Source: an uncultured Syntrophomonadaceae bacterium (GTDB lineage: Bacteria > Bacillota > Dethiobacteria > DTU022). From it: a stretch of 64,000 bases of DNA. The position numbers and the translations under genes were made by a program. Shown here one piece after another: positions 12,986 to 57,684 of the stretch (the first letter of the stretch is position 1; every line of letters starts with the position of its first letter). The stretch spans positions 13,865-77,864 of the forward strand of contig CAZBKZ010000008.1 of assembly GCA_964492615.1 (NCBI GenBank), in the 5' to 3' direction. The notes beneath the pieces were generated by a model, which saw only the letters and a program-made list of their open reading frames with translations, did not search any database and had not been told where the DNA came from.

Positions 12986-13022
12986 CACTGAATGCTCCGG
13001 ACCGATGAAAGCAGGTGTTTTA

Positions 13023-19248: not shown

Positions 19249-19294
19249 TCTTGATTATTGCAAAAGCAAAAACATGCAGCTTTAATTGTAAGTA

Positions 19295-20884: not shown

Positions 20885-20931
20885 AGAATCCCGAAGGGGA
20901 TGATTGTTGCCAGAAAGGAGCACTTGATAAC

Positions 20932-35034: not shown

Positions 35035-35227
35035 GGTTTAGGAAGGGGAAACGTTACTTTCTGAACTAAGCGAATATTTTGCCTGACTCCTTTTATCATG
35101 TTATTGGAAATATCCGCCATCCGGTTTCCGGGGGAGGTGCAATGGCATAAATTAAAGATTCATCTCTCGGCTTATACTTGCAGTTTAAAATGCTAAAACA
35201 AAATAACTCAAAAGGAGTGATTTTTTA

Positions 35228-36379: not shown

Positions 36380-36559
36380 AGAGTAAGTAGGTAGGATAAC
36401 CGGCCAAAGATGCATGGGGTTCAATTACTACAGCGCGATATCATGATTAATCGACCGATCAGCCATATCCCGGTAGCTGTCCCAGGGCACGGTTAATTAT
36501 CTGTAAAAGCGTCCTGCCTGAAGTATTATGGTTTTACTCCGAAGGAGGAAGCAGTAAAG

Positions 36560-37012: not shown

Positions 37013-37817
37013 ACTGATTATTACCGCCGCCCTGACCGGCGCCGAAGTTACAAGGGAGCACAATCCCAACCTGCCAGTAACACCGGCTGAGATTGCCGAG
37101 GCTTCTTATGACTGTTTTAATGCAGGGGCTTCGATGGTTCATGTTCATGTACGTAATCAGGATGGAGCACCGACGCAGTCTGCTGATGTTTTCAAAGAAA
37201 CAATGGAGCTGATCAAGGAAAAATGCAATATCATTGTTCAAACATCAACTGGTGGTGCCGTGGGCATGCCCGCCGAGGAGAGACTGCAGCCAGTTTATCT
37301 TAAGCCTGAGATGGCCACTCTCTCAACCGGCTCGGTAAACTTTGGTGATGACGTTTTTTTGAACCCCCCGGCTTACCTTGAAGAATTTGCCAGGGTGATG
37401 AAGGAGCAGGGTGTAAAGCCCGAGATAGAGGCATTTGATGTAGGGATGATTAACAATGCTCTGTATTTATTAAAAAAAGAATTAATATCGTCTCCGATTC
37501 ATTTTGACTTTGTGATGGGTGTCCCAGGTGGAATACCGGGAACGGTTAAAAACCTGCTGCATATGGTGGAGAGTATACCGGCAGGCAGTACCTGGACAGT
37601 GGCAGGTATGGGAAGAACAGAATTGCCCCTTGGCACGGCAGCGATTATCATGGGGGGTAATGTAAGGGTCGGTTTTGAGGATAATATATATTATGAAAAA
37701 GGAGTTCTGGCCGAAAGCAACGCTCAATTAGTTGAGCGCATAGCGCGTATTTCCAAAATACATGGTCGGGAAGTGGCTTCTCCGGATGAAGCACGGCAGA
37801 TTCTTGGGCTGAAGTAA
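37005..37817 (+). CDS. kce: 3-keto-5-aminohexanoate cleavage enzyme (BKACE/DUF849 family)
   Basis: N-terminal M.KLIITAALTGAE... and overall TIM-barrel BKACE hallmarks; 270 aa; overlaps the kal stop codon. Confidence 0.7.
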   Translation: MDKLIITAALTGAEVTREHNPNLPVTPAEIAEASYDCFNAGASMVHVHVRNQDGAPTQSADVFKETMELIKEKCNIIVQTSTGGAVGMPAEERLQPVYLKPEMATLSTGSVNFGDDVFLNPPAYLEEFARVMKEQGVKPEIEAFDVGMINNALYLLKKELISSPIHFDFVMGVPGGIPGTVKNLLHMVESIPAGSTWTVAGMGRTELPLGTAAIIMGGNVRVGFEDNIYYEKGVLAESNAQLVERIARISKIHGREVASPDEARQILGLK

Positions 37818-37844
37818 TTTATAACTAAAGCAGGTATTTTTTAA

Positions 37845-37880
37845 AAGACCTTCCTTAAATGAGGGAGGTCTTACCTTTTT
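37845..37880 (+). terminator. Rho-independent terminator after kce
   Basis: aagaccttcc-ttaaatga-gggaggtctt, then accttttt. Confidence 0.6.
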
Positions 37881-38062
37881 ACAGGGAAACAAACGACACC
37901 GGGTATATTGTTTAAGTATCAGTTTTGGTAACAGGACAGGCTAAAGGTAATTCCTGTAACTGGAGCGTTTTTAATTTGACTGATTAAACTATCATTTGCC
38001 CGTCATAAAAAAAAATAGTAACATGAAAAAATAAAAAACTGTAGCATGGAAGGGTGACAAAC

Positions 38063-39313
38063 ATGGAATCAAAACCAAGATTAAAGCTGGAAAAGTCGCT
38101 GGCCTTGTTTGAGGAAGCAAAAAAATTGTCTCCGGGCGGGGTTATGGGAATCAGGAGACCTTATAATTTTGTTGAGGGTGAATACCCGATTTACCTCAGT
38201 CATGGACGTGAAGGCCATATTTTTGATGTAGACGGCAACGAATATATAGATATGTTGTGTGCCTATGGACCGATTATCTTAGGCTACAGCGAACCGGAAA
38301 TTAACAGGGCAGTAGTGGAGCAGATGGAAAAGGGCTTTTGCTTTTCCCTGGTTCAACCGATTCAAAATGATTTAATGAAACGTTTGATTAATCTAATCCC
38401 ATCGGCAGAAATGGGACTACTGCTGAAAACAGGCTCCGATGCAACGGGTGTTGCGGTGCGTATTGCAAGGGGTTATAGTGGCAAAGATCTGATTTTGCGC
38501 TGCGGTTACCACGGATGGATGGATTGGTGTGTTGAGGTACCTGGTGGTGTTTCGAAAAAGATTCGTGACCTGACCCTGGATTTTCCTTATGGCGATCTGG
38601 ATGCCCTGGAAGCATTAATCCTTTCAAATAAAGATGATGTTGCCTGTATTATTCTCACGCCGGTTGGTCATCCGCTTGCCGAGCCTGTTGTTGCTCCTCC
38701 CAGGGGTTACCTGGAAGGAGTGCGTGCTCTGGCTGATAAGTATAAAATCATTTTAATTTTTGATGAGATCCGCACCGGTTTCAGGGTTGCAATGGGGGGA
38801 GCTCAGGAGCGTTATGGTGTAGTCCCCGACATGACAACTGTTGGTAAAGCCCTGGCTAATGGCTACGCTATTAGTGCCTGTCTGGGTAAAGCGGAAATAA
38901 TGAAAGTAGCGGAAAAAGAAGTGTTTGTCAGCTCAACTTTTTTCCCCAACAGCCTGGCCATGGTTGCAGCTATGAAATGTCTTGATATCCTTGAACGGGA
39001 AAATGTAATTGAAACTGTCTGGCAGCGTGGTGAGAGATTTCTGAGTGAACTCGGCAAGGCAGTTTCTGCATCAAAAGTGCCGGCAACTGTATCTGGTATT
39101 CCGCCCATGCCATTTTTAACTTTTGACAAAGTAGATAATCTGTACAGTAAGCGGCGTATAGATTTTTACACCGAAACAATCAGGCGCGGTCTCTTTATCC
39201 AACCTTATCACCACTGGTATATTTCATACCGGCATACTGAAGATGATATGGATCAGGCCCTTTGCGCTATTAAAGAAGCCCTGCAAATTGTGGCACAGAG
39301 GTACCCATATTAA
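38063..39313 (+). CDS. Class-III aminotransferase-fold enzyme, glutamate-1-semialdehyde 2,1-aminomutase-like
   Basis: N-terminal KSLALFEEAKKLSPGGV resembles HemL. PLP-lysine region TVGKALANGY. Own promoter and terminator context; start at 38063 after a GGAAGGG RBS. Confidence 0.6.
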   Translation: MESKPRLKLEKSLALFEEAKKLSPGGVMGIRRPYNFVEGEYPIYLSHGREGHIFDVDGNEYIDMLCAYGPIILGYSEPEINRAVVEQMEKGFCFSLVQPIQNDLMKRLINLIPSAEMGLLLKTGSDATGVAVRIARGYSGKDLILRCGYHGWMDWCVEVPGGVSKKIRDLTLDFPYGDLDALEALILSNKDDVACIILTPVGHPLAEPVVAPPRGYLEGVRALADKYKIILIFDEIRTGFRVAMGGAQERYGVVPDMTTVGKALANGYAISACLGKAEIMKVAEKEVFVSSTFFPNSLAMVAAMKCLDILERENVIETVWQRGERFLSELGKAVSASKVPATVSGIPPMPFLTFDKVDNLYSKRRIDFYTETIRRGLFIQPYHHWYISYRHTEDDMDQALCAIKEALQIVAQRYPY

Positions 39314-45369: not shown

Positions 45370-45619
45370 TTCACCATTCCCCATATTGTATTCCTACTAT
45401 TATAGCATTATAAAGTTGAAAATCGCATTTTCACTTTTCCTAAAAAAGATAATATGTTTCTAACCAGTTGAGGCATTGCTTGAGCACCGCATTCGGCTGT
45501 AAACGTGATTGTCAATATATAGCTCTGGTAGAAGTTGATATCCTCCTGAATCGATGGGGCAACCTTCTTTGCATCATACAGAGAGATGTGAAATAATTAT
45601 TATTTAGAAATAGTATATC

Positions 45620-45740
45620 CAGCACCGATGGGAGGGTTCCTCCGGCAAGCGGGCCGGATCCATTATAATGATTGGTTTAAATACCCGTATGCTAATCACA
45701 GTCAGGCCCGACCTGCAAGATTAACTGCGGGTTTTTTAGA
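45620..45740 (+). promoter_or_regulatory. Candidate cobalamin riboswitch-like leader (B12-box-like AGTCAGG...GACCTGC at 45700-45716) upstream of the MttB-family gene
   Basis: A 400-nt leader containing AGTCAGGCCCGACCTGC, which fits the B12-box pattern rAGYCMGgAgaCCkGCc. Upstream GC-rich paired elements (GGGAGGG...CCGG...CGGGCCGGATCC) and a downstream T-run (45732-45737) are present. The rest of the Rfam RF00174 core is not clearly recognisable by eye. Confidence 0.3.
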
Positions 45741-45787
45741 TATAAAAGATAAGGAGGTGTGGAGCCTGAATTGAAACAGGCTAAAAG

Positions 45788-47329
45788 ATGAGTAGAACCG
45801 GTATACTGATTAACAAGCCATATAAAAAGCTCAGCAGGGAGCAGGTTGAACTTATTGATCAAACCTCTCTTGAGCTCTTACAAACCCCCGGGATATTATG
45901 CTATCACGAAGAAAGTACCACCCTTTTTGAAAAGGAAGGCGCAAAAATAAAAAAAACCAAAGAAGGTGAACATGATGCCTGGTGGATTAGTATTCCACCC
46001 GGAGTTGTAAAGAGTGCTCTTGAGTCTGCTCCGGCCAGGGTTACCCTGGGTGCCCGCAATCCCGAAAATAGGGTAGTTTTAGACGCAGAAGGAAACAGGG
46101 TCTACTTCGGCACTGGTTCTGAAACTAATTACTGGCTGGAAATCGAGCCGGAGGAATTTACTTCTGATAAAGATGGGGCCAGGAGAACATTTGCGGTTAT
46201 GAAAAAAAGCCGGGGCAGCCTTAACCTGCTCTGCCGATCAGCTCATCTGGCAGAACAGCTGGAAAATCTCGATTTTTTTATCCGCAATGTTAATATTCAG
46301 GATTCTGATATTACAACAGGCAATAAAGACGTCAACGTATTTTTTGCTTCACTTAACCATCTGACTAAACCTGTTATCGGTGGGGTTGCTGATTATGAGC
46401 AGCTGGAAAAAATTGTTAGAATAGCTGAAATAATTGCCGGAGGAAGAGAGCAATTGAGGGAAAATCCCCTGGTTGCATTCATAACCAGCGTTATAAAAAG
46501 CCCGCTGCAGGTTGTTGATGATACCGCAGAAAAGTTAATTGCCATTGCCAGGCTCGGATTGCCTGTTGTTATTTCTACTTCTCCTCAGGGAGGATCAACA
46601 GCGCCTATCGATATGCTGGGTATGGTTGCCCAGGTTAATGCCGAAGCCCTGGCCGGTATAACCATTAATCAGCTTGCCAGTCGCGGCGCACCGGTGATTT
46701 ACGGGGCTGTCCCAGTCAGAGCCAGGATGGATGACTTGCATGACATGTACGGGGTCCCTGAATTCTGTCAATACACTATGGCCTGTGCACAGATGGCCAG
46801 GTATTACGGGGTGCCCTGTTATTCCACGGCAGGGGTTGGCGATGCCAAGGTTCCTGGTATTCAGGCAACAATGGAAAAAATGTACACCCATAGCATGGTT
46901 CCGCTTGCTGCTCCTGACCTGGTGCATTATTCTTTTGGGCTTCTTGACAAGACTCAGACTTATAGTCCGGAACAGGCAGTGCTGGATAATCATCAGATTG
47001 GCATGGTAAAATTTTTGCAAAGAGAACAGGAAGTTAATAGCAATTCAGCAGCTAAAACTAAGAAAATGATAGCTGACGTTATGCACAGCCCATACAGGAT
47101 GTATGCCCGTTATGCCAGGGGGATGCTCAGGCGTGGGGAAATTTTCGCCGGATTTCCTTTTGAAGGGAAATTGGAAGATCAGGACCAGACTTTGCTTAAG
47201 GTGCATGAAAAATTTGCTGAATTGGAAGCGGCTAAACCTAAATACCTGCCGGAAGATACCTGTAAATTAATCTTTAATGAAATATCCGGGCTTCTTCCGC
47301 GGCTTAATCCTTATGGGGAGGTTAAATAA
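45788..47329 (+). CDS. MttB-superfamily methyltransferase lacking pyrrolysine (glycine betaine/quaternary-amine:corrinoid methyltransferase-like, MtgB-type)
   Basis: 513-aa uninterrupted ORF (no in-frame TAG) with MttB-family TIM-barrel sequence features. Directly followed by a corrinoid protein gene. Confidence 0.8.
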   Translation: MSRTGILINKPYKKLSREQVELIDQTSLELLQTPGILCYHEESTTLFEKEGAKIKKTKEGEHDAWWISIPPGVVKSALESAPARVTLGARNPENRVVLDAEGNRVYFGTGSETNYWLEIEPEEFTSDKDGARRTFAVMKKSRGSLNLLCRSAHLAEQLENLDFFIRNVNIQDSDITTGNKDVNVFFASLNHLTKPVIGGVADYEQLEKIVRIAEIIAGGREQLRENPLVAFITSVIKSPLQVVDDTAEKLIAIARLGLPVVISTSPQGGSTAPIDMLGMVAQVNAEALAGITINQLASRGAPVIYGAVPVRARMDDLHDMYGVPEFCQYTMACAQMARYYGVPCYSTAGVGDAKVPGIQATMEKMYTHSMVPLAAPDLVHYSFGLLDKTQTYSPEQAVLDNHQIGMVKFLQREQEVNSNSAAKTKKMIADVMHSPYRMYARYARGMLRRGEIFAGFPFEGKLEDQDQTLLKVHEKFAELEAAKPKYLPEDTCKLIFNEISGLLPRLNPYGEVK

Positions 47330-48028
47330 ATGAGCAGTGATCTGCTTGAATTAATTGTAGAGAATGTTTTACAGGGTCGTCGTAACAGTGATGATGAAGG
47401 CATTGAGGAAGGAGATTTTGGTCAACCAGGGGTTGCTGAGCTGGTTGCCAGGGCCCTTGAAGATGGCATTAATACGGAACAGGTTCTCATAGATGGGCTC
47501 AGCCGTGGGATGCAGATGGTCGGTGACAAGTACGAAAGCGGTGAATACTTTATTCCTGATATGCTCACTGCAGCCGAAGCAGTGGAAGCCGGAATGGCTG
47601 TTCTGGAACCGTACCTGGTCAGCGGAGGTGAAAAGGCCGGCCGGGGTAAAATAGTAATGGCAACGGTTGAAAAAGATCTGCATGATATTGGCAAGAACCT
47701 TGTAACCATAATGCTCAAGGGGGCAGGCTTTAACGTGATTGACCTGGGAATTGATGTGCCGGCTGCCCGAGTGGTTGAGGTAGCTGAGCAGGAAGGCGCT
47801 GCCGTAATCGGTCTTTCGGCTTTACTTAACACTACAATGTCCAACATGAGTGAAGTGGTTAAGCTGCTTGAGGAGAAAGGGCTTCATGACCGCATCAAGG
47901 TATTAATTGGCGGTGCACCCGTATCCGATGATTTTGCAAGGGAAATCGGTGCAGATAGTTATGGCAAAGATGCTTTTGCGGCGATAAAAGAAGCAGAAAA
48001 ACTAATTGTATCCGGAGGGAATGTATAA
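47330..48028 (+). CDS. Cobalamin-binding corrinoid protein (MtbC/MtgC-like)
   Basis: N-terminal B12-binding-2 helical cap plus a Rossmann-like B12-binding domain with DxHxxG (DLHDIGKNLV); 232 aa. Confidence 0.8.
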   Translation: MSSDLLELIVENVLQGRRNSDDEGIEEGDFGQPGVAELVARALEDGINTEQVLIDGLSRGMQMVGDKYESGEYFIPDMLTAAEAVEAGMAVLEPYLVSGGEKAGRGKIVMATVEKDLHDIGKNLVTIMLKGAGFNVIDLGIDVPAARVVEVAEQEGAAVIGLSALLNTTMSNMSEVVKLLEEKGLHDRIKVLIGGAPVSDDFAREIGADSYGKDAFAAIKEAEKLIVSGGNV

Positions 48029-48029
48029 A

Positions 48030-49280
48030 ATGGAAGCTGACCAGGCATACCTGGAAGCCATACAACATGGTCGCTACAGTGAAAAAGTAAAAGGGTTACG
48101 CTGTAAGTATGATCACGTGCGCATACAATTTGAAGATTTCATTACAGCGTATTACCTGAGACCTTACCTGGAAGAAATGATGGAGCAGAAGCTTAACGGA
48201 GAAGAAAATGAAGGATTGCGTTTTTTTGATCTTGGCTGTGGAACTGGAGATGGATATGAACTGCTCTGCAAAATGGCAGGAGATACAAAACTGGCCGAGT
48301 TTGATACAAGGTTAATTCAGGAAGATATGGTACAACAGTACAAGGGGATTGACTTAAATATAGCCCTGCTTAAAGAAGCCAGGGAGTTATTTGGGCACTA
48401 TGAAAATGTTGATTTCTGCAAGGGTAATTTTTCTGAAGGTTTACCCCTGGAAGAAGGGGAAGAACCATATGATCTATATTTTACTTCCTACGGCACGCTT
48501 TCACACTGTAATGACGAAGAACTGGAAAGATTGTTTATTGATATTGCGAAACATGGGCGAGACGGCAGCCTGATCCTGGGAGACTTTATTGGCCGTTATT
48601 CGTATGAGTGGCAGGATACCTGGACGGTTCAACCCGAAGAACAGCCCTTTATTGACTATAAAATAAATTACCTGTATGCAGAAGAACAAAGGGATGAAGT
48701 GGATGTATCATCATTCCCGCTCCGACTGATGTCTCCGGTGGAATTGGACCAGATAATAGACGATGCCTCCCGGAAGAGCGGGGTCAGGTTGGAAGTATTG
48801 AAATACTTTGACCGCTCTCTTTTTATCGGCCGGCATATAGAAACAGGTACATATAACGGCAACCCTCAGCCACTGCGGCTTATGGTTTCGTCACTCTTTG
48901 AAAGAGGTTTGCGTACATATTTCCCCGATCTGAAAGTAAGTTTTCAGCCAAAAGAGGGTTTTAAACACGTGAATGAAGCGCTCCAGGTGTTGGCAGACAG
49001 CTGGAACAGCCTGCTTGACTATACAATGCTGTTAATGGAGCATTATGATGATGGGGAAGAACTGCTTCCCTACCCACCACAAACAGATATTAAATCTTTG
49101 GAGAAAGCATACAGGGTGATGCGACAAACCCTGGAGGGAAGCAGGGGGCTTTACGGTGATATCCGGGCGGATCTTATCGAAGCCCAGCTCGGTTATGCCC
49201 TGCGCAGCCTGGAAATGGGTCTGCAGAATGGCACCGGGGTTGGTCATGGACTGGTTGCTGTGATCCGGGTTAATAAGTAA
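48030..49280 (+). CDS. Class I SAM-dependent methyltransferase with a long C-terminal extension, embedded in the corrinoid methyltransferase locus
   Basis: Motif I FDLGCGTGDG and motif post-I (DLYFTSYG); about 416 aa. The start at 48030 is 8 nt after a GGAGGGA RBS and 1 nt after the corrinoid-protein stop. Confidence 0.55.
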   Translation: MEADQAYLEAIQHGRYSEKVKGLRCKYDHVRIQFEDFITAYYLRPYLEEMMEQKLNGEENEGLRFFDLGCGTGDGYELLCKMAGDTKLAEFDTRLIQEDMVQQYKGIDLNIALLKEARELFGHYENVDFCKGNFSEGLPLEEGEEPYDLYFTSYGTLSHCNDEELERLFIDIAKHGRDGSLILGDFIGRYSYEWQDTWTVQPEEQPFIDYKINYLYAEEQRDEVDVSSFPLRLMSPVELDQIIDDASRKSGVRLEVLKYFDRSLFIGRHIETGTYNGNPQPLRLMVSSLFERGLRTYFPDLKVSFQPKEGFKHVNEALQVLADSWNSLLDYTMLLMEHYDDGEELLPYPPQTDIKSLEKAYRVMRQTLEGSRGLYGDIRADLIEAQLGYALRSLEMGLQNGTGVGHGLVAVIRVNK

Positions 49281-49658
49281 AAGGGTTCTATGTACTCAAT
49301 ATCTATGATAATAAGCGCTGGGCTATAATCAGGCATGATTATCTGTCTTTAATCTTTCTAAAAGCGCAATTGCTTTGAATAAAGCATTTTAATGACGTAT
49401 ATCTGTCATATACGGTATTTGAATAAGGAAGCTTAATATGAAATAATTAATATATATTAATATGCACCAGTTCGTATTCATAAAAATCAAATATTATTCA
49501 AATTAACTTCACAACATCGCTATGTCTTATTTTAATTAATTTGTCAGGTAATGTGATTATAATAATCACTTATTTTGGTTTGCACCTGGTATAAAGTAGT
49601 GTGCTACTATTTTTGTTTTGCGCATTATTACAGAGAAAGGAAGGGTGATTGATAATAA

Positions 49659-50396
49659 ATGAACCTGAATGATGGCTTATTATCTAGTTATTTGTTTTCG
49701 GAAACCGGTTTTTCTTCTGTCACCGGACAGTCAGGCGTTGCGTCCTTATTTTCACGAACTGTTACATATTTTATGCGACGCAGTGATTTAGTCTGGGATT
49801 TGCTTTTAGAGCACATCTGGCTGGTTCTGGTATCAATTTTAATTGCAGTGGCAATAGCTGTCACAATTGGGGTTATCATCAGTTACAAGAGCAGTATAGC
49901 TATTACAGTAATAACTGTCTGCCAGATCTTGATGACCATCCCCAGTATGGCGATGCTTGCTTTTATGGTTCCCATCTTCGGCATAGGTTTTACTACCGGA
50001 GTAATGGCCTTGATCCTTTACAGCTTACTGCCGATCGTTCGCAACACATACACCGGTATTAAGGAAATCAGTCCTGCTATTGTAGAATCGGCAGTGGCCA
50101 TGGGCATGACCGAGTGGAGAGTATTGACCAAAATTAAGATCCCCCTGGCCCGCCCGGTAATCATGGCAGGTATCCGTACGGCAACTGTTATGATCGTTGG
50201 TATCGGCGCTATTGCAGCTTATGTAGGTGCCGGAGGGCTGGGAGAGTTAATTTTTCAGGGGATTTCCCGCTCACATGAACCGATGATAATTGTCGGAGCC
50301 CTTGGAGTTTCAATCATAGCGCTTGCTTTTGATTTCATTCTTTCGTGGGGAGAAAAAAAACTCATGGCAATCAGTAGAACAGGGGAGGCCAAGTAA
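49659..50396 (+). CDS. Osmoprotectant/betaine ABC transporter permease (OpuCB/ProW-like)
   Basis: Multi-TM permease with the ABC importer EAA-like loop region; its stop overlaps the ATPase start. Confidence 0.75.
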   Translation: MNLNDGLLSSYLFSETGFSSVTGQSGVASLFSRTVTYFMRRSDLVWDLLLEHIWLVLVSILIAVAIAVTIGVIISYKSSIAITVITVCQILMTIPSMAMLAFMVPIFGIGFTTGVMALILYSLLPIVRNTYTGIKEISPAIVESAVAMGMTEWRVLTKIKIPLARPVIMAGIRTATVMIVGIGAIAAYVGAGGLGELIFQGISRSHEPMIIVGALGVSIIALAFDFILSWGEKKLMAISRTGEAK

Positions 50397-51508
50397 TGAT
50401 CAAACTAGAAGGAATATCTAAAATATTTCCGGGATCCAAGGTACCGGCTGTTGATAACCTGAACCTGGAAGTTAAAGAAGGCGATATATGTGTTCTGGTT
50501 GGTCCTTCTGGATGCGGAAAGACCACAACCATGAAGATGATTAACCGGATTCACGAACCCAGCAGTGGATCAATCTACATAAATGGTAAAGACGCTTTGA
50601 AAATGAATCCGATTAAACTGCGCCTGGATATCGGCTACGTTATTCAGGAAATCGGATTATTTCCCCATCATACAATTGAAGAGAATGTGGCTACCGTTCC
50701 CAATGAAAAAAAGTGGCCCAGGGAAAAAACAAGAAAAAGAGTGGCCGAAATGTTGACCCTGGTTGGTTTGGACCCGGAAATTTACGGTAACCGCTATCCA
50801 TCCGCATTGAGCGGTGGGCAGCGCCAGCGGGTCGGAGTGGCACGGGCCATGGTCTCCGATCCCCCGATCATGTTGATGGATGAACCTTTTGGCGCAGTTG
50901 ACCCGATTACCAGAGCACGCTTGCAGAATGAATTTTTAAGGATCCAGGAAAGAATCAGTAAAACCATCGTTTTTGTAACCCATGATATCGATGAAGCGAT
51001 TAAGATGGGTGATACAATCGCAGTAATGAGAGAGGGCAAACTGGTGCAGCATGCTACACCGAGTGATTTGCTCAGCGCTCCTGCTGATGAGTTTGTAGGC
51101 AACCTGGTCGGACGAAACCGTTCTATCAAGCGTCTTCACCTGATTCGTATCCGTGAAATACTGGAACATGTGGACAGGGCAAAACCAGCCACAGTGGACA
51201 TGTCATTGAATGATCTGAAGCAGAGGCTTGATGATAGCGAAATTCATTCGGTTATGGTTGTTGATCGCGACAACAAGCTTAAAGGCGTTATCGGGGTTGC
51301 TGATCTTAAGCGCAAAGCCGGTGAAGTGGCTGCCGATTACATTCAGGAGTTGGATCAATCCGTTACAAGCGATGCTACTCTTAACGATGCGCTTTCGGTG
51401 ATGCTTGAATGCGGCGAGGGGTTTGTTGCCGTCGTTAATGAAGACGATCAATACCAGGGGACAATTACCCTTGGTGATTTGCTAAATGTTGTGAAGGAGG
51501 ACGGATAA
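50396..51508 (+). CDS. Glycine betaine/carnitine/choline ABC transporter ATP-binding protein with tandem C-terminal CBS domains (OpuCA/ProV-like)
   Basis: Walker A GPSGCGKTT, signature LSGGQRQR, Walker B LMDEP, followed by two CBS domains. Confidence 0.85.
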   Translation: MIKLEGISKIFPGSKVPAVDNLNLEVKEGDICVLVGPSGCGKTTTMKMINRIHEPSSGSIYINGKDALKMNPIKLRLDIGYVIQEIGLFPHHTIEENVATVPNEKKWPREKTRKRVAEMLTLVGLDPEIYGNRYPSALSGGQRQRVGVARAMVSDPPIMLMDEPFGAVDPITRARLQNEFLRIQERISKTIVFVTHDIDEAIKMGDTIAVMREGKLVQHATPSDLLSAPADEFVGNLVGRNRSIKRLHLIRIREILEHVDRAKPATVDMSLNDLKQRLDDSEIHSVMVVDRDNKLKGVIGVADLKRKAGEVAADYIQELDQSVTSDATLNDALSVMLECGEGFVAVVNEDDQYQGTITLGDLLNVVKEDG

Positions 51509-51511
51509 TCG

Positions 51512-52234
51512 ATGCTGCGAGATATCTGGCGGTGGGGCATACTTCCTCTTTTGTTGATTGCTGTAGGAGTTGCAATTGTAGTTTATGGAGTTAATAATCC
51601 AACCGATTCGCTGGTAGCCCGGGCGCTTACTTACGAAAATGTACTTAGGGGTTTGCGTCAGCACCTGATGCTTATGGTCGTCTCAATGTTTGGCGCAATT
51701 GTTATTGGTGTGTTGGTTGGTATAATGCTTTCCCGCCCAAAACTGTATTACCTGGGGCGCGGTGTTGAAAATGTGGTTAACGTGGGACAGACAATCCCCA
51801 GCCTGGCTATACTGGCTTTGTTTTTTACCATCATGGGGCTCGGTTTTAACGTGGCAGTATTCGCCCTGTTTTTATATTCTATTCTTCCCATCCTCAGGAA
51901 TACGTTTGCCGGTATTGTTAACGTGCAGAAGAGTATTATTGAATCGGCCAGGGGAATGGGTATGAATCCGTTACGTATTTTAGTCAAGATTGAACTGCCC
52001 CTGGCATTTCCGATTATAGTGGCAGGGATTCGCACAGCGATAGTTATAAACGTTGGCGCAGCTACCCTGGCTACCTTTATTGGTGGTGGAGGATTTGGTG
52101 ATTTAATTGTTACCGGCCTTTCACTGCGCCGGGATATGATTGTTTTTACCGGGGCAGGTCTGGCTGCCCTGACGGCAATATTTCTTGACTACTATATTGC
52201 CAGAATTGAAGAAAGATTGGTCAGGTGGACCTGA
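51512..52234 (+). CDS. Osmoprotectant ABC transporter permease (second permease, OpuCD-like)
   Basis: Paralogous to the first permease (...ILPI.RNT..GI..V...). Confidence 0.8.
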   Translation: MLRDIWRWGILPLLLIAVGVAIVVYGVNNPTDSLVARALTYENVLRGLRQHLMLMVVSMFGAIVIGVLVGIMLSRPKLYYLGRGVENVVNVGQTIPSLAILALFFTIMGLGFNVAVFALFLYSILPILRNTFAGIVNVQKSIIESARGMGMNPLRILVKIELPLAFPIIVAGIRTAIVINVGAATLATFIGGGGFGDLIVTGLSLRRDMIVFTGAGLAALTAIFLDYYIARIEERLVRWT

Positions 52235-52297
52235 TCATTTTAAGGTTTGGCTATTTTCCCATATGAGCAAATACCTGAAGGGGGTAAATCTATTAAA

Positions 52298-53218
52298 ATG
52301 TTTAAACGAGTTTTAATTACATTGATCATCATTGCATTACTGGCGGGTTCTCTATTTATATCTGGTTGCCAGTCTGGTGAAGATGGAGTAGTAATTGGTT
52401 CAAAGGAGTTCACCGAGTCGTTGATTCTCAGCCAGATATCCATACTGGCGCTCGAGGCAAATGGGATCCCGACAGTTGATGAAACAGGGCTTGGAGGTAC
52501 TGTAGTTGCCCGCGAAGCTCTTGAAGCAGGAGAAATCGATCACTACTGGGAATATACAGGAACAGCTTTGGTCAATTACTTCGGATTTGATGTACTTACC
52601 GATCCTGAGGAATGCTATCAGCTGGTTAGGGATACTGATCTTGAAAGAAATAATCTGGTATGGCTCGATTACACACAGTATAACAATACTTATGTAATTA
52701 TGATGCGCCAGGCAGATGCAGATGCTCTCGGTATTTATTCGATCAGTGATCTTGCTGCAGCTATTAACGAAGAGGTGGAAGCTCCTGAGCCGGGCACCTG
52801 GAAATTTGGTACCAATCATGAATACTCAACCCGTGATGACGGTTTTCCCGGTTTGCTTGAGCACTACGATTTTGAATTTGACAGTGTTGAAGTAATGGAT
52901 TACGGAATTCTTTATACAGCCCTGAGAGACGGTGAATTAGCCTCGGCGATGGGTTTTGGAACAGATGGCCGTATCACTCCTTTCGAATTGGTTATTCTGG
53001 AAGATGACCAGTTCTTTCACCCTGTCTACAACAGTTCCCCTGTTTTCCGTCAGGAAGTGATTGATGAGTATCCACAAATTCCGGAAATCTTAGGCCCAAT
53101 TGCAACTGCTCTTGACAATGAGAATATGGCGAATTTAAATAGGTTGGTTGATGAAGAAGATCATCTGCCAAGAGAAGTTGCCGAAGAATGGTTAATCGAG
53201 CAGGGTTTTATTGAATAG
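52298..53218 (+). CDS. Osmoprotectant (glycine betaine/choline-type) ABC transporter substrate-binding lipoprotein (OpuCC-like)
   Basis: Lipobox FISGCQ, ~300-aa mature protein, OpuAC/OpuCC-family fold features. Start at MFKRV after an AAGGGGG RBS. Confidence 0.8.
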   Translation: MFKRVLITLIIIALLAGSLFISGCQSGEDGVVIGSKEFTESLILSQISILALEANGIPTVDETGLGGTVVAREALEAGEIDHYWEYTGTALVNYFGFDVLTDPEECYQLVRDTDLERNNLVWLDYTQYNNTYVIMMRQADADALGIYSISDLAAAINEEVEAPEPGTWKFGTNHEYSTRDDGFPGLLEHYDFEFDSVEVMDYGILYTALRDGELASAMGFGTDGRITPFELVILEDDQFFHPVYNSSPVFRQEVIDEYPQIPEILGPIATALDNENMANLNRLVDEEDHLPREVAEEWLIEQGFIE

Positions 53219-53285
53219 GCCAGCTTTATTGGTCTTAAATGATAAATAAAAGTAATATTGCATATTAAGGGAAAGTAGCCGTTAT

Positions 53286-53335
53286 ATGGGGGTGAGTAGG
53301 GTAACCTAATCTTACCCCCATCATTATATATTTTT
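53286..53335 (+). terminator. Terminator-like hairpin after the transporter operon
   Basis: atgggggt...acccccat stem followed by an atatattttt run. Confidence 0.4.
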
Positions 53336-53358
53336 ACAACCAAACAGGAGGGATAAGC

Positions 53359-53853
53359 ATGACGGTGCTGGCGAAACAAATTATGACCAAGCCGGTTATT
53401 ACAGTTAAAGCAGACACCCCGCTGAAAAGAGCCGCTGAAATTCTTGATGAGAACCGGTTTAGCGGGATGCCTGTTGTCGACGACCAGTATAAACTGATTG
53501 GCATATTGTCGGAAGCTGATATTCTGCATTATACACAGCAGATCATCGGGCAGCCTTTAAGAGATCCTCATCGGGTTTTTACAAAAAGCAAAGAAGTGCT
53601 GCATATTGATATTACCCACAGAGGCGTTGAAGTGATAGAATTGGTGGCGGCAACGACAGTAGAGACCCTGATGACTACCGAGGTCATTCATGTAAATGTG
53701 GATACTCCAGTTATGGAAGTTGTCCGCCTGATGAAAAAGCACAATATTAACCGTATTCCGGTAGTTGACAGTAACGATATTTTACAGGGAATTATTACCC
53801 GGGCTGATATTATCAGCATGCTGATCAAATACTGGCCTGCAGAAATGGAGTAA
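53359..53853 (+). CDS. CBS-domain pair protein
   Basis: Two CBS motifs (IMTKPVITV...GMPVVD and VIHVN...INRIPVVD); 164 aa. Confidence 0.75.
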   Translation: MTVLAKQIMTKPVITVKADTPLKRAAEILDENRFSGMPVVDDQYKLIGILSEADILHYTQQIIGQPLRDPHRVFTKSKEVLHIDITHRGVEVIELVAATTVETLMTTEVIHVNVDTPVMEVVRLMKKHNINRIPVVDSNDILQGIITRADIISMLIKYWPAEME

Positions 53854-53905
53854 ATAATATTATAATCACGATGCAGGGATAGATGGATAAACTGGAGGGT
53901 TCTAT

Positions 53906-55360
53906 ATGAAAAGTCCGATCTATGAAGGAGGCAGTTACCGTGTTCTTTCAGACAGGGAGATCGGCCAGATACACGAAACGTCGCTTCGGGTTTTGGAAAC
54001 AGTAGGGTTTGAAATTAATTTTCCACCGGCCCTTAATATGTTTGAAGAAAAAGGTGCTGAGGTTGACCGGACCCGAAGCAGGGTTTACCTGCCCAGGGAG
54101 CTGGTGACTCGCTCTATTAAACAGGCTCCGTCTGAATTCATGTTTTATGGTCGGGAAGAAGGTAAAAGTATTACAGTTGGAGGGAAAAGAGTTCACTTCG
54201 GAACCGGCGGTCTGGCTCTGTATGTTCTGGACCTGGAGCGTAATAAACGCCCGGGGACCCTTAAAGATGTTGCTGATCTGGCTCGTTTGGCTGATAATCT
54301 CGAAAACCTCGACTTTTTTATCATTCCTGTATATCCTCACGATATTAATATTGATACTGTTGATATCAACACTAAGTACCAGGCCCTGCTGCATACCGGC
54401 AAACCGGTTATGGGCGGGATATTTAACCTCCAGGGGCTGGAGGATATGGTTGCTATTGCCTCAATGATTGCCGGAGGGTTGGAGAACCTCAGAAAAAGGC
54501 CGTTCCTTGGGTTTATATCCTCAATCACCAGCCCTTTGAAAATAAGTGCGGATCATGCAGAATATATAATGAAAATTGCCGATTACGGTTTACCGCTGGC
54601 CACTTCAACGGCGCCTGCAGCCGGAGCAACTGCTCCCATTACCCTGGCCGGAACTCTGGTTCAGCAAAATGCTGAGGCATTGATGGGTGTGGTTATCTCT
54701 CAGCTGGTTAATCCGGGAACACCGGTTCTATACAGTGCTGTACCGGTTACCATGGATATGCGCACCATGTCATTTTTAATGGGCAGCATTGAATCAGGTT
54801 TAATGAATGCAGCAATTACCCAGATGGCCCATTTTTATCGTTTGCCCTGTTACCTAACTGTGGGGACAACCGATTCAAAACTTCCTGATGCCCAGGCTGC
54901 GCACGAAGGGGCTTCATCGGCCATGCTTGCAGCACTGGCCGGAGGCAATTTCATTCATGAAGCTTTTGGCATGCTTGATGGGGCTATGACAGTATCTTAT
55001 GCCCAGTATATCATTGATAATGATATTGTAGGCAGTTGTCTCAGAACCCTGAGAGGTATTGAGGTAGATGAAGATACCCTGGCTTATGAAATTATTAAAA
55101 AAGTCGGCCCTGGAGGGAACTACCTGGGAGAAGAACATACAGTTAAGTACGTGCGCACTGAAAGCTTTTCGCCCAGGGCCAGCGACCGGCAGCAATACCA
55201 GCACTGGTTTGATGCGGGCAGCAAGGATAGTTGGAAACGAGCGGAAGAGGTGGTTGAGCAGCTGCTTGGCGAGCCTTTCGTAACTAAAATTCCTGTTGAT
55301 CTGGATCAATTAATCAGGGAGCAATTTCCCGACCTTGTTGATATTAAAGAAAATGAATAG
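53906..55360 (+). CDS. Second MttB-superfamily methyltransferase lacking pyrrolysine (paralog of 45788..47329)
   Basis: 484-aa uninterrupted ORF that aligns with the first MttB-family protein (e.g. ...GTGG.A.YVLDLE... / LENLDFFI motifs shared). Confidence 0.8.
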   Translation: MKSPIYEGGSYRVLSDREIGQIHETSLRVLETVGFEINFPPALNMFEEKGAEVDRTRSRVYLPRELVTRSIKQAPSEFMFYGREEGKSITVGGKRVHFGTGGLALYVLDLERNKRPGTLKDVADLARLADNLENLDFFIIPVYPHDINIDTVDINTKYQALLHTGKPVMGGIFNLQGLEDMVAIASMIAGGLENLRKRPFLGFISSITSPLKISADHAEYIMKIADYGLPLATSTAPAAGATAPITLAGTLVQQNAEALMGVVISQLVNPGTPVLYSAVPVTMDMRTMSFLMGSIESGLMNAAITQMAHFYRLPCYLTVGTTDSKLPDAQAAHEGASSAMLAALAGGNFIHEAFGMLDGAMTVSYAQYIIDNDIVGSCLRTLRGIEVDEDTLAYEIIKKVGPGGNYLGEEHTVKYVRTESFSPRASDRQQYQHWFDAGSKDSWKRAEEVVEQLLGEPFVTKIPVDLDQLIREQFPDLVDIKENE

Positions 55361-56370: not shown

Positions 56371-57684
56371 TTGTACCTTCATTCGGCTCCCCTGGCGGAC
56401 ATTGCCGGTAACTTAAGGTTAGGCACTGTTAGTTTGAAAGATTACATCAACAATACCTGTGACATGATAGAAGAGATAGATCATAAGCTGGAGGCCTTTT
56501 TGCCTGAATCAGGACGCCGTGATCGTTTACTTGTAGAGGCTGAAAATCTTCTGGCAGCATATCCGGAACCGTCTCAACGCCCACCTTTGTTTGGTGTTTT
56601 AATCGGAGTGAAAGATATATATCATGCAGATGGTTTTGATACCCGGGCAGGCTCCAGGCTTGATCCCGGGGTGTTGAGCGGAAGCGAAGCAGATACAGTA
56701 AGGTTGCTGAAACAGGCCGGGGCATTAGTGCTGGGCAAAACAGTAACAACAGAATTTGCCTACTTTGAGCCCGGCCCAACCAGGAATCCACATAACCCCA
56801 ACCATACACCGGGTGGTTCAAGCAGTGGCTCAGCTGCTGCGGTTGCCGCCGGAATGACACCTCTTGCCCTCGGCACACAGACCATTGGTTCAATTAACAG
56901 GCCTGCCGCTTTCTGTGGAGTGGTAGGTTTCAAGCCGAGTTATGGGCGGATTCCAACCGGAGGGTTGCTCTATTTCTCGCGCTCGGCTGATCATGCCGGT
57001 TGCTTCACCCAGGATGTTGAGGGAATGCTCCTGGCCGCTTCAGTCTTATGTCATGACTGGCGTGAAATAAAAGTTAACTACCAGCCTGTTCTCGGTATAC
57101 CCAGGGGGAAATACCTTGAGCAGGCAACAGACGAAGCACTGGAAGCCTTTAAGACCCAGGTGATCAGGCTGCGATCAGAAGGTTATGAAGTTAATGAGGT
57201 TAACGCACTGGATGACATAGAAAATATTGCGTTATGGCACCGCAAGCTGGTTTCTGCCGAGCTGGCGATTGAACATGCCGAACTATACTCTCGTTTCAGT
57301 GAACTTTACAGGCCTAAAACTGCTGAATTAATTGAAGAAGGTCTGTTAGTGAACAAAAGTGAGCTAATTGAAGCTCGTAAAAAGCAAAAAAGTCTGAGAG
57401 AGAGGCTTGAGACAAAAATACGTCAGGCGGGTATTGATCTCTGGATTACACCCGCAGCTCCGGGTCCGGCACCTGCGGGCATTGAAGCTACAGGTGATCC
57501 TGCCATGAATATGCCATGGACTAATTCGGGATTACCATCGGTTAATCTCCCTGCGGGAAAAGCACAAAATGATTTACCGCTTGGCTTACAGTTGATCGCT
57601 CCTTATATGGGAGACGAACTGCTTTTGTCATGGGCTAAAGGGGTGGCTGCTGTTTTTCTTGATTACCAGGCTTACAGGGTTTAA
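56371..57684 (+). CDS. Amidase-signature family amidase (intact Ser-cisSer-Lys triad)
   Basis: IGVKDIY (Lys), GGSSSGSAAAVAAG and GTQTIGSINRPAA motifs are intact; 437 aa. TTG start with an AAGGAGGGA RBS. Confidence 0.75.
   Translation: MYLHSAPLADIAGNLRLGTVSLKDYINNTCDMIEEIDHKLEAFLPESGRRDRLLVEAENLLAAYPEPSQRPPLFGVLIGVKDIYHADGFDTRAGSRLDPGVLSGSEADTVRLLKQAGALVLGKTVTTEFAYFEPGPTRNPHNPNHTPGGSSSGSAAAVAAGMTPLALGTQTIGSINRPAAFCGVVGFKPSYGRIPTGGLLYFSRSADHAGCFTQDVEGMLLAASVLCHDWREIKVNYQPVLGIPRGKYLEQATDEALEAFKTQVIRLRSEGYEVNEVNALDDIENIALWHRKLVSAELAIEHAELYSRFSELYRPKTAELIEEGLLVNKSELIEARKKQKSLRERLETKIRQAGIDLWITPAAPGPAPAGIEATGDPAMNMPWTNSGLPSVNLPAGKAQNDLPLGLQLIAPYMGDELLLSWAKGVAAVFLDYQAYRV

What the first reader, a model, noticed from the sequence alone, without database searches (positions are those of the whole stretch)
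45788..55360. Quaternary-amine (betaine-type) corrinoid methyl-transfer locus with two non-pyrrolysine MttB-family paralogs, a corrinoid protein and a dedicated OpuC-like importer
The locus contains a 513-aa and a 484-aa MttB-superfamily ORF, both uninterrupted by TAG. They flank a B12-binding corrinoid protein (DxHxxG), a four-gene osmoprotectant-type ABC importer (permease, CBS-containing ATPase, permease, substrate-binding lipoprotein) and a CBS protein. Non-Pyl MttB homologs are the known glycine betaine (MtgB), proline betaine (MtpB), carnitine (MtcB) and gamma-butyrobetaine (MtyB) methyltransferases. Two divergent paralogs around one corrinoid protein suggest two different quaternary-amine substrates feeding one methyl carrier, with a substrate-specific importer. 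The methylcorrinoid:THF methyltransferase and the RamA-type reductive activase expected for a complete system are not in the window.
Basis: partly seen in the sequence, partly recalled or inferred. Interest (0 to 1): 0.7.

Follow-up and report, generated by a model that had tools for sequence, protein, structure and literature searches.

The report
Corrinoid-plus-SAM methyl-transfer cassette with betaine importer
The locus is real, but it is one copy of an undescribed cassette found in hundreds of anaerobes, joining two unusual pyrrolysine-free MttB-type methyltransferases, a B12 protein, an overlooked SAM-dependent methyltransferase and a betaine/choline-type importer, probably to manage the methyl groups of an osmoprotectant.

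Summary
Both MttB-family ORFs lack an in-frame TAG. The pyrrolysine position is Val350 (GTT) in A and Thr321 (ACA) in B.

The order A - corrinoid protein - MT416 held in 61 of 62 related loci that had enough upstream flank, by script, and in the 62nd by eye. These loci span soda-lake Syntrophomonadaceae, Thermodesulfobacteriota, Nitrospirota, Dehalococcoidia and Planctomycetes. A B-type paralog lay within the fetched flank in 56 of 80 loci.

Relatives add the parts missing here: a methyl-THF:corrinoid methyltransferase, RamA or a MetH-activation-like protein, AsnB homologs, and sometimes AhcY and MetK.

Neither paralog has MtgB's glycine-betaine-binding residues. Arg312, reported as conserved in all characterised quaternary-amine enzymes, is Tyr in both clades. 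Calling the locus "betaine-type" is therefore unproven.

MT416 also occurs without any corrinoid genes. It is found fused to AsnB beside OpuA-type transporters, and fused to a universal stress protein domain.

My best reading (about 0.35) is a hybrid corrinoid/SAM N-methylation and turnover system for a trimethylammonium osmolyte. A purely catabolic system is nearly as likely. This is a new variant of a known kind.

The parts
45611..45737 (+). Conserved 5' leader of the A operon. It has a hairpin (TCCGG-UAAGCGGG-CCGGA) followed by an intrinsic terminator (CCCGUA...CAGG...CCUG...UACGGG-U6). The hairpin-loop sequence GCGGG could pair with CCCGU as an antiterminator.
   Evidence: A promoter-like TTTGCA-18-(TG)AATAAT lies at 45568-45597. 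The leader is conserved in 22 Syntrophomonadaceae loci. A covariance model gives exactly one hit per locus, always upstream of A, and none elsewhere in the window. It matches no Rfam family. It shows no compensatory changes, so a structured regulatory role is inferred, not shown.
45751..45787 (+). Split ribosome-binding site. The Shine-Dalgarno AAGGAGG (45751-45757) is separated from the start codon by a hairpin (arms 45763-45768 and 45777-45782).
   Evidence: Across 22 distinct sequences, 90.9% of cells are paired. Six sequences have U-A changed to C-G at one pair. No shuffle in 500 reached the observed covariation score, and the slid controls were far lower.
45788..47329 (+). Paralog A: a divergent pyrrolysine-free MttB-family methyltransferase (513 aa). 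It has a beta-hairpin insertion at residues 115-142 and Val350 at the pyrrolysine position.
   Evidence: Pfam MTTB 204.6 bits; TIGR02369 242.8 bits against a cutoff of 525. The AF2 model has pLDDT 81.5 and matches MtgB 2qne (TM 0.77/0.83) and MttB 7xcn (0.77/0.81) over the full length. The clade has 70 members, with S/Y/V/Y/T invariant at the MtgB positions 97/312/317/348/356.
47330..48028 (+). Corrinoid (B12-binding) protein, 232 aa. Its start codon directly abuts the stop codon of A.
   Evidence: B12-binding_2 (59.4 bits) and B12-binding (99.9 bits) domains; DLHDIG motif. It is closest to the MtgC and TIGR02370 models but scores below their cutoffs.
48030..49280 (+). MT416: a 416-aa class-I SAM-dependent methyltransferase with family-specific N-terminal helix and C-terminal helical insertion.
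49281..49658 (+). Intergenic region with a conserved second promoter (TTGAAT-17-TATGAAATAAT type), which separates two transcription units.
   Evidence: Promoter-like site at 49419-49447. It is conserved in 16 aligned loci and resembles the promoter upstream of the leader.
49659..50396 (+). ABC importer permease 1
   Evidence: BPD_transp_1; best NCBIfam matches are choline and ProW permeases.
50396..51508 (+). ABC importer ATPase with C-terminal tandem CBS domains
   Evidence: TIGR01186 proV 357.6 bits, above the cutoff of 326.6.
51512..52234 (+). ABC importer permease 2
   Evidence: BPD_transp_1.
52298..53218 (+). Substrate-binding lipoprotein of the OpuBC/OpuCC/OsmF class
   Evidence: OpuAC domain 176.1 bits. 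The closest solved chains are Thermoanaerobacter OpuBC-derived sensors (6v1r), OsmF (4wep) and OpuCC (3ppn). The tyrosine-bearing motifs EYTG, NNTY and YTA are kept. Lipobox FISGC.
53359..53853 (+). Stand-alone CBS-pair protein, always paired with B in the Syntrophomonadaceae loci
   Evidence: CBS domains 120.9 bits; weak CbpB-like match at 52.6 bits. It is conserved before B in 17 loci.
53906..55360 (+). Paralog B: a pyrrolysine-free MttB-family methyltransferase (484 aa) with Thr321 at the pyrrolysine position and Glu at the MtgB His348 position.
   Evidence: MTTB 370.1 bits; TIGR02369 445.2 bits against a cutoff of 525. Full-length alignments to MtgB (284 bits) and MttB (271 bits). The clade has 59 members and includes the 487-aa paralog of Desulfoferrobacter suflitae.
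54866..54965 (+). Rfam PYLIS_3 match inside B. I read it as a coding-sequence homology echo, not a functional pyrrolysine insertion element.
   Evidence: 52.8 bits against a gathering score of 38, but the model's UAG aligns to ACA.

Best explanation
The locus is one copy of a cassette conserved across several phyla of anaerobes. It has two transcription units. The first is a leader-controlled operon encoding paralog A, its corrinoid protein and MT416, with gaps of 0 and 1 nt between the genes. The second encodes an OpuB/OpuC-type importer for trimethylammonium compounds, a CBS-pair protein and paralog B.

I propose that the cassette manages the N-methyl groups of a betaine- or choline-type compatible solute. 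The importer takes the solute up. The corrinoid enzymes move methyl groups between cobalamin (and so the methyl-THF pool of the Wood-Ljungdahl pathway) and the amine nitrogen of the solute or its less methylated precursors. MT416 uses SAM for the methylation that methyl-THF cannot drive, namely formation of the quaternary ammonium.

On this reading, A, the corrinoid protein and MT416 form a hybrid corrinoid/SAM N-methylation line. B, which is transcribed with the importer, removes a methyl group from imported or surplus solute.

Shown: gene content, families, absence of pyrrolysine, conservation of the cassette, its partner genes in relatives, and the occurrence of MT416 without corrinoid genes. 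Inferred: the substrate, the direction of the A reaction, and the division of labour between A, B and MT416.
For: 1. Linkage. A, the corrinoid protein and MT416 are adjacent and in the same order in 61/62 loci by script, and in the 62nd by eye. These come from 494 relatives found in species-representative genomes spanning at least five phyla. Two further A homologs taken independently show the same arrangement. In the window the three genes are separated by 0 and 1 nt and share one leader and promoter. Co-produced enzymes should not make and destroy the same compound.

2. MT416 is a small-molecule SAM enzyme and not a corrinoid accessory. Its SAM motif is intact and it has the class-I fold. 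It occurs with no MttB or corrinoid gene nearby. Two independent AsnB-MT416 fusions each sit next to an OpuA-type betaine transporter. There is also a Usp-MT416 fusion and a stand-alone copy in the halophile Natranaerobius. Its nearest solved relatives by profile include phosphoethanolamine N-methyltransferases, which build a trimethylammonium group (a weak match).

3. Partner genes in relatives point to SAM flux and osmotic adaptation. AhcY and MetK, TrkA/TrkH and an MscS-type channel occur nearby. OpuA/OpuC importers are present in 31 of 80 loci.

4. The corrinoid side is linked to THF. A pterin-binding methyltransferase is present in 43 of 80 loci. A RamA or a MetH-activation-like protein is also present.

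5. The active sites differ from those of the known quaternary-amine demethylases. Arg312 is Tyr in both clades. Position 348 is Tyr in A and Asp or Glu in B, whereas the H348E change abolishes MtgB activity.

6. Own knowledge, not computed here. The free energies of methanogenesis from methylamines and from methanol imply that N-methylation of primary to tertiary amines from methyl-pterins is exergonic. Only the quaternising step should need a stronger donor such as SAM.

7. The betaine synthesis route of the soda-lake Syntrophomonadaceae is reported as unresolved (PMC6295475).
Against: Every characterised MttB-family enzyme is catabolic, running from substrate to Co(I). No tool here gives the direction of the reaction or the substrate. 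RamA, a pterin-binding MT2 and importers are also the standard kit of catabolic systems. In the window B has no corrinoid protein of its own and must share the one from the first unit, which blurs the proposed division of labour. The AsnB link is strong in other phyla, where there are gene fusions and intergenic gaps of 8-30 nt. It is absent from this genome's cluster, and the model leaves it unexplained. The match to phosphoethanolamine N-methyltransferases is weak. Methylation of an amine by methyl-Co(III) without pyrrolysine has no biochemical precedent.
Confidence: 0.35

Rival explanations
1. Purely catabolic system, as the first reader proposed or in a sequential variant. The importer brings in a quaternary amine. 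B and A demethylate either two different substrates or the same molecule twice (for example betaine to dimethylglycine to sarcosine), passing the methyl groups to the single corrinoid protein. An MT2 and a RamA encoded elsewhere deliver the methyl groups to THF. MT416 has an accessory role that is not understood.
For: All characterised family members work in this direction (PMC8604678; PMC13080624; PMC12155760). Importers, a pterin-binding MT2 and RamA or a MetH-activation-like protein accompany the cassette in relatives. Stepwise demethylation by pyrrolysine-free MttB members has been proposed for strain DCMF (PMC9768040). The host lineages carry the Wood-Ljungdahl pathway and could use the methyl groups (PMC6295475).
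Against: It does not explain why a SAM-consuming methyltransferase is the most conserved neighbour of A and the corrinoid protein and is translationally coupled to them. It also leaves the AsnB, AhcY and MetK associations unexplained. Both paralogs lack Arg312, which is reported as conserved in every characterised quaternary-amine enzyme.
Confidence: 0.3
2. Substrate pre-modification, by analogy with MthK and MthB. MT416 (together with AsnB in other phyla) chemically modifies the imported compound, for example by masking a carboxylate as an ester or amide. The modified compound then fits A and B, which lack the carboxylate-binding arginine.
For: There is a precedent: choline must be phosphorylated by MthK before MthB can demethylate it. 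AsnB and a carboxyl methyltransferase would both neutralise a carboxylate. A and B lack Arg312, and B has Asp or Glu at position 348. AsnB and MT416 are fused in some genomes.
Against: Spending one SAM, which itself costs a methyl-THF plus ATP, for each substrate molecule makes little energetic sense for syntrophs and sulfate reducers (inference). The AsnB-MT416 fusions occur where no MttB or corrinoid gene is nearby.
Confidence: 0.1
3. MT416 is a SAM-dependent reactivator. It remethylates the oxidised corrinoid protein, as the activation domain of MetH does, and so replaces RamA.
For: The window's cluster has neither RamA nor a MetH-activation-like gene. One partial protein, P0289, reads as a B12-binding domain fused to MT416.
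Against: 37 of 80 loci carry a MetH-activation-like gene in addition to MT416, and one locus carries RamA. MT416 also occurs with no corrinoid gene nearby. The one B12-binding fusion is a fragment, and a single error at a 1-nt gene junction could produce it.
Confidence: 0.07
4. MT416 is an unconventional MT2. It passes the methyl group from the methylated corrinoid protein to an acceptor other than THF.
For: The gene order MT1 - corrinoid protein - third methyltransferase mirrors the canonical three-component operons.
Against: No class-I methyltransferase is known to use methylcobalamin (own knowledge). The SAM-binding motifs are intact. The cassette usually also encodes a normal pterin-binding MT2. 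MT416 exists without corrinoid partners.
Confidence: 0.05

Closest known systems
MtgB/MtgC/MtgA glycine betaine:THF methyltransferase system of Desulfitobacterium hafniense (PDB 2qne, 9yce)
   Same: It has a pyrrolysine-free MttB-fold MT1 and a small cognate corrinoid protein with a DxHxxG motif. MtgB is the best solved match for both paralogs: 144 and 284 bits by sequence, and TM 0.77/0.83 for the A model.
   Different: Identity is only 30% for A and 35% for B. All four betaine-binding residues differ: Y97, R312, H348 and F356 become S, Y, Y, T in A and G, Y, E, A in B. No MT2 is encoded in the window. A class-I SAM methyltransferase is part of the operon here.
MttB/MttC trimethylamine methyltransferase of Methanosarcina barkeri (PDB 7xcl, 7xcn)
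   Same: It has the same fold. The FGTG and P-x-Y active-site motifs are shared with A and B. B's coding sequence even triggers the Rfam PYLIS_3 model.
   Different: There is no UAG codon and no pyrrolysine: the position is Val in A and Thr in B. Both score below the TIGR02369 cutoff.
MthB/MthC/MthA plus MthK choline system of Eubacterium limosum (PMC12155760)
   Same: It is an MttB-family MT1 co-localised with an enzyme that acts on the small-molecule substrate. This is the only reported case of a substrate-modifying partner.
   Different: There the partner is a kinase whose phosphate is recycled. Here it is a SAM-dependent methyltransferase. MthB is reported to keep Arg312, whereas A and B do not.
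SAM-dependent routes to trimethylammonium compounds: glycine/sarcosine/dimethylglycine N-methyltransferases and phosphoethanolamine N-methyltransferase
   Same: These are class-I fold enzymes. In some relatives MT416 is associated with AhcY, MetK and osmolyte transporters. There is a weak profile similarity to phosphoethanolamine N-methyltransferases.
   Different: MT416 matches no specific Pfam or NCBIfam family. It carries about 140 extra residues between strands 6 and 7. It is genetically tied to corrinoid enzymes.
OpuB/OpuC/OsmF-type osmoprotectant ABC importers
   Same: It has two permeases, a CBS-bearing ATPase and an OpuAC-fold lipoprotein that keeps the tyrosine-bearing motifs.
   Different: The ligand is unknown. 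The binding protein scores below the OsmF equivalog cutoff (176.8 against 400).

Membership tests
MttB superfamily (PF06253) | Significant match to the family profile | tested here: met
   A scores 204.6 bits and B scores 370.1 bits against a cutoff of 25.
MttB superfamily (PF06253) | TIM-barrel fold with a C-terminal extension, as in MtgB and MttB | tested here: met
   The A model matches 2qne and 7xcn at TM about 0.77-0.83 over about 510 columns. B aligns end to end by sequence.
Pyrrolysine-containing trimethylamine methyltransferase MttB | In-frame UAG (pyrrolysine) at the active-site position | tested here: not met
   The codon is GTT (Val350) in A and ACA (Thr321) in B. Neither has an internal TAG, and TAG serves as the stop codon of B.
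Pyrrolysine-containing trimethylamine methyltransferase MttB | Score above the TIGR02369 equivalog cutoff (525 bits) | tested here: not met
   A scores 242.8 bits and B scores 445.2 bits.
MtgB glycine betaine:corrinoid methyltransferase | Betaine-binding residues Y97, R312, H348 and F356 (PMC13080624) | tested here: not met
   A has S, Y, Y, T, invariant in 70/70 clade members. B has G, Y, E, A; across the B clade the residues are G, Y, D/E, C/A.
Characterised pyrrolysine-free quaternary-amine methyltransferases (MtgB, MtcB, MtpB, MtyB, MthB) | Conserved Arg at the MtgB-312 position, which binds the acidic group of the substrate | tested here: not met
   The residue is Tyr in all 129 members of the A and B clades. 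The conservation claim comes from PMC13080624.
Characterised pyrrolysine-free quaternary-amine methyltransferases (MtgB, MtcB, MtpB, MtyB, MthB) | Substrate-dependent methylation of the Co(I) corrinoid protein | not testable with these tools
   This needs an enzyme assay.
Methyltransferase-cognate corrinoid proteins (MtgC/MttC type) | B12-binding_2 cap plus Rossmann B12-binding domain with DxHxxG | tested here: met
   The domains score 59.4 and 99.9 bits, and the DLHDIG motif is present.
Methyltransferase-cognate corrinoid proteins (MtgC/MttC type) | Score above the NCBIfam MtgC or TIGR02370 cutoffs | tested here: not met
   NF047996 scores 199.6 against 370. TIGR02370 scores 194.2 against 215.3.
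Complete MT1 - corrinoid protein - MT2 - activase system | A pterin-binding MT2 and a RamA-type activase encoded with MT1 and the corrinoid protein | tested here: not met
   Neither is present in the 64-kb window. Both are adjacent to the cassette in relatives. The rest of this genome could not be searched.
Betaine/choline/proline-type ABC importer (OpuA/B/C) | ProV-family ATPase with CBS domains, two permeases, and an OpuAC binding protein with an aromatic cage | tested here: met
   TIGR01186 scores 357.6 against a cutoff of 326.6. OpuAC scores 176.1 bits. The tyrosine-bearing motifs align with OpuBC and OpuCC structures. The ligand was not determined.
Class-I SAM-dependent methyltransferases | Rossmann-type fold with the glycine-rich SAM-binding motif I | tested here: met
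Glycine/sarcosine/dimethylglycine N-methyltransferases | Specific sequence-family match | tested here: inconclusive
   There is no NCBIfam hit at all, and only generic Pfam methyltransferase domains match. A putative sarcosine/dimethylglycine enzyme (2o57) appears only as one generic structural hit among many.

The most novel reading that the evidence does not exclude
MttB-family enzymes run biosynthetically here. A, and possibly B, transfer methyl groups from methyl-THF through the corrinoid protein onto a primary or secondary amine of the glycine, ethanolamine or an amide-bearing series. MT416 then spends a single SAM on the final quaternising step. Energy-limited Wood-Ljungdahl anaerobes would thereby obtain a low-cost route to a trimethylammonium osmolyte. 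This would be the first corrinoid-dependent N-methylation pathway and the first anabolic role for the MttB superfamily.
Probability: 0.3. Interest if true: 0.85.

Novelty: new variant of a known kind. Interest (0 to 1): 0.62.

Why it matters
Pyrrolysine-free MttB homologs are very numerous, and only a few substrates are known. This cassette defines two large, sharply conserved clades whose active sites break the rule shared by all characterised members, since neither has Arg312.

It also ties those clades to a SAM-dependent methyltransferase, a combination I could not find described in the searchable literature. If the corrinoid side feeds methyl groups into a solute, that would change how the cost of osmoadaptation in salt-stressed syntrophs and sulfate reducers is understood. 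It could also close the open question of betaine or choline synthesis in soda-lake syntrophic acetate oxidisers.

If the system is catabolic, it points to an unrecognised methylated substrate in marine and soda-lake sediments. In either case Desulfoferrobacter suflitae DRH4, a cultured organism, carries the full cassette, so the question can be tested directly.

Tried and rejected
1. A missed amber codon: rejected. There is no internal TAG, and the PYLIS_3 hit aligns its UAG to ACA.

2. Assigning A or B to MtgB: rejected on the active-site residues.

3. A known riboswitch in the leader, or between MT416 and the importer: no Rfam family matched at E up to 10. The B12-box-like stretch I saw by eye is not supported.

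5. Literature searches for an MttB/corrinoid/SAM-methyltransferase/AsnB combination found nothing relevant. Papers on Natranaerobius gave no data on its homolog.

6. MT416 as a reactivator or as an MT2: considered and ranked low (see the rival explanations).

7. Unbiased clustering of all neighbouring ORFs found no further conserved partner beyond those listed. Most of the extra clusters were antisense shadow ORFs.

8. I did not use the third homolog search on B, because the locus analysis had already placed it.

Full report
**Observation**

- Paralog A: 45788-47329, 513 aa.
- Corrinoid protein with DLHDIG: 47330-48028.
- Importer: two permeases, a ProV-type ATPase with tandem CBS domains (TIGR01186, 357.6 bits against a cutoff of 326.6), and an OpuAC lipoprotein.
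- CBS-pair protein: 53359-53853.
- Paralog B: 53906-55360, 484 aa.

Neither paralog contains an internal TAG. Alignment to the Methanosarcina MttB structure places Val350 (GTT) of A and Thr321 (ACA) of B at the pyrrolysine position. B and the binding-protein gene both stop at TAG.

Rfam reports a PYLIS_3 match inside B, but the model's UAG aligns to ACA. I read this as an echo of coding-sequence homology.

Pfam scans of all ORFs of at least 150 aa in the 64-kb window found no pterin-binding MT2 and no RamA.

A 416-aa ORF at 48030-49280 starts 1 nt after the corrinoid gene and carries a class-I SAM-methyltransferase domain. I call it MT416.

**Source organism**

Identical proteins occur on metagenome contigs. 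The nearest species-representative genome locus is an uncultured Syntrophomonadaceae MAG, where the MT416 match is 91% identical. It is followed by many MAGs whose isolate names (CSSed, T1Sed, B1Sed) I recognise as soda-lake sediment samples, which is my own knowledge and not a tool result. The window also encodes Lgt, GatAB, MnmG and FakA, so the organism is a bacterium.

**The conserved cassette**

MT416 belongs to a well-conserved family. One search gave 940 hits and a search of clustered representatives gave 402. The family alignment has 58 invariant columns.

A scan of one genome per species found 494 relatives. I analysed the best 80 loci. Of 62 loci with enough upstream sequence, 61 by script have an A-type MttB gene and a corrinoid gene directly upstream of MT416 in that order. 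The 62nd shows the same arrangement by eye.

The hosts include Syntrophomonadaceae, many Thermodesulfobacteriota (among them the cultured Desulfoferrobacter suflitae DRH4), Nitrospirota, Dehalococcoidia and a Planctomycete. Two further A homologs, chosen independently, show the same arrangement.

Other genes found within the 80 loci:

| Gene | Loci (of 80) |
|---|---|
| B-type paralog | 56 |
| Pterin-binding methyl-THF:corrinoid methyltransferase | 43 |
| AsnB homolog | 43 |
| MetH-activation-domain-like protein | 37 |
| OpuAC binding protein | 31 |

Individual loci add RamA, a second corrinoid protein, AhcY, MetK, TrkA/TrkH or an MscS-type channel. The only exception seen is Natranaerobius, where the MT416 homolog stands alone.

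**The two MttB clades**

I clustered 136 MttB-family proteins from these loci together with MtgB and MttB. This gives an A clade of 70 members, containing window A and the 511-aa D. suflitae protein. It also gives a B clade of 59 members, containing window B and the 487-aa D. suflitae protein. Both clades are separate from the two reference enzymes.

Pairwise identities are 52% (A to its D. suflitae counterpart), 42% (B to its counterpart), 36% (A to B), and 26-36% to MtgB or MttB. The AF2 model of A (pLDDT 81.5) matches MtgB and MttB over its full length at TM about 0.8, and the A-specific insertion folds as a beta-hairpin.

The published glycine-betaine contacts of MtgB are Y97, R312, H348 and F356. 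R312 is reported as conserved in MtgB, MtcB, MtpB, MthB and MtyB, and the R312L and H348E changes abolish activity (PMC13080624).

| Position in MtgB | MtgB | A clade (70/70) | B clade |
|---|---|---|---|
| 97 | Y | S | G |
| 312 | R | Y | Y |
| 348 | H | Y | D or E |
| 356 | F | T | C or A |

 Both clades share FGTG and P-x-Y motifs with true MttB. They are therefore pyrrolysine-free members of the superfamily, but they cannot be filed under MtgB or any other characterised enzyme.

**MT416**

Motif I (DLGCGxGDG) is invariant. The model (pLDDT 83.7) has a class-I core, with an N-terminal helix and a helical insertion of about 140 residues between strands 6 and 7.

The search of clustered representatives revealed domain fusions.

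- Two AsnB-MT416 proteins. Each is encoded next to an OpuA-type ABC transporter, with no MttB or corrinoid gene nearby.
- One universal-stress-protein-MT416 fusion.
- One partial B12-binding-MT416 fragment.

In the Thermodesulfobacteriota loci, AsnB homologs follow MT416 after 8-30 nt. The commoner type has Ser or Ala in place of the N-terminal catalytic Cys.

Two conclusions follow. MT416 works on a small molecule linked to betaine-type transport and stress. It does not depend on corrinoid proteins.

**Transcription units**

Upstream of A lies a promoter-like site and a 127-nt leader. The leader contains a hairpin and an intrinsic terminator.

A covariance model finds the leader exactly once per locus, always before A, in 22 Syntrophomonadaceae loci, and nowhere else in the window. 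It matches no Rfam family and shows no compensatory substitutions. Its role as an attenuator or riboswitch is therefore inferred.

Between the Shine-Dalgarno sequence and the start codon sits a hairpin with real covariation. A second, similar promoter is conserved between MT416 and the importer.

A, the corrinoid protein and MT416 therefore form one unit. The importer, the CBS protein and B form another.

**Interpretation**

The tight coupling of A, the corrinoid protein and MT416 argues that they act in the same direction in one pathway. A SAM-consuming step is hard to fit into energy-yielding demethylation in syntrophs and sulfate reducers. It is normal in the synthesis of methylated osmolytes.

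From my own knowledge of the free energies of methylotrophic methanogenesis, methyl transfer from a methyl-pterin to a primary, secondary or tertiary amine is favourable. Only the formation of a quaternary ammonium needs a stronger donor.

I therefore favour, at about 0.35, a hybrid pathway with four elements.

1. The corrinoid enzymes shuttle methyl groups between the THF pool and the amine.
2. MT416 carries out the quaternising step.
3. B demethylates imported or surplus solute.
4. The importer recovers the solute.

The solute is unknown. Candidates are the glycine series, the ethanolamine or choline series, or an amide-bearing betaine. The ethanolamine series is suggested by the binding protein's nearest solved relatives, which derive from a choline-binding OpuBC, and by the phosphoethanolamine-methyltransferase hint. 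The amide-bearing betaine is suggested by the AsnB link.

The main rival, at about 0.30, is ordinary catabolism of one or two quaternary amines, or stepwise demethylation as proposed for strain DCMF, with MT416 left unexplained. Pre-modification of the substrate in the manner of MthK and MthB, SAM-dependent reactivation, and an unconventional MT2 are less likely.

**Novelty**

The components belong to known kinds. Four full-text searches found no description of the combination or of the two MttB clades. I rate it a new variant of a known kind.

It can be tested in Desulfoferrobacter suflitae and with recombinant proteins.

Noticed in passing
window 45611-45737: A conserved leader with a hairpin and terminator lies upstream of paralog A. 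It matches no Rfam family. It occurs once per locus in 22 related Syntrophomonadaceae loci, and is absent from the more distant loci that carry the same cassette. It is a candidate new attenuator or riboswitch, but shows no compensatory base changes.
   Followed up: partly
window 45751-45790: The Shine-Dalgarno sequence lies about 30 nt from the start codon, separated from it by a covarying 6-8 bp hairpin. The hairpin would bring the two to normal spacing. Most relatives use TTG as the start codon here.
   Followed up: partly
window 54866-54965: The Rfam PYLIS_3 model scores above its gathering threshold inside a gene with no UAG. The model appears to detect mttB-like coding sequence and not a pyrrolysine insertion signal.
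   Followed up: yes
L009 13003-14526 and the equivalent genes in about 35 loci (for example L044, L061): The AsnB paralogs that directly follow the MT416 homolog have Ser or Ala in place of the N-terminal catalytic Cys. They cannot hydrolyse glutamine and may use another nucleophile.
   Followed up: partly
P0269, P0275 (L093 6929-9634), P0297 (L095 8001-9794), P0289: Natural fusions of the MT416 domain exist with a full AsnB, with a universal stress protein domain, and (in one fragment) with a B12-binding domain. The AsnB fusions sit next to OpuA-type transporters, with no corrinoid genes nearby.
   Followed up: partly
window 33997-39313: This cluster encodes a zinc-type dehydrogenase, a saccharopine-dehydrogenase-like protein, a 150-aa protein of unknown function, a BKACE beta-keto-acid cleavage enzyme and a class-III aminotransferase. 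It is syntenic in related MAGs. It may be a lysine or beta-amino-acid pathway, and BKACE enzymes also act in carnitine breakdown.
   Followed up: no
window 49281-49658: The promoter between MT416 and the importer has nearly the same extended -10 region (TATGAAATAAT) as the promoter upstream of the leader (ATATGACATAAT in relatives). This hints at common control of the two units. An imperfect palindrome, ACGTATAT-N5-ATATACGG, lies just upstream.
   Followed up: partly
window 56371-57684 and 6059-8912: A second amidase-family gene sits next to galU, just downstream of the locus, in addition to the gatA/gatB pair at 6059-8912. It is syntenic in related MAGs, and its function is unknown.
   Followed up: no
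window 18334-22611: A CusF-like protein is followed by two NosD-like beta-helix proteins. They lie near copper- and zinc-handling genes: a P-type ATPase at 1312-3801, the ZnuABC genes and Fur at 10375-13478.
   Followed up: no
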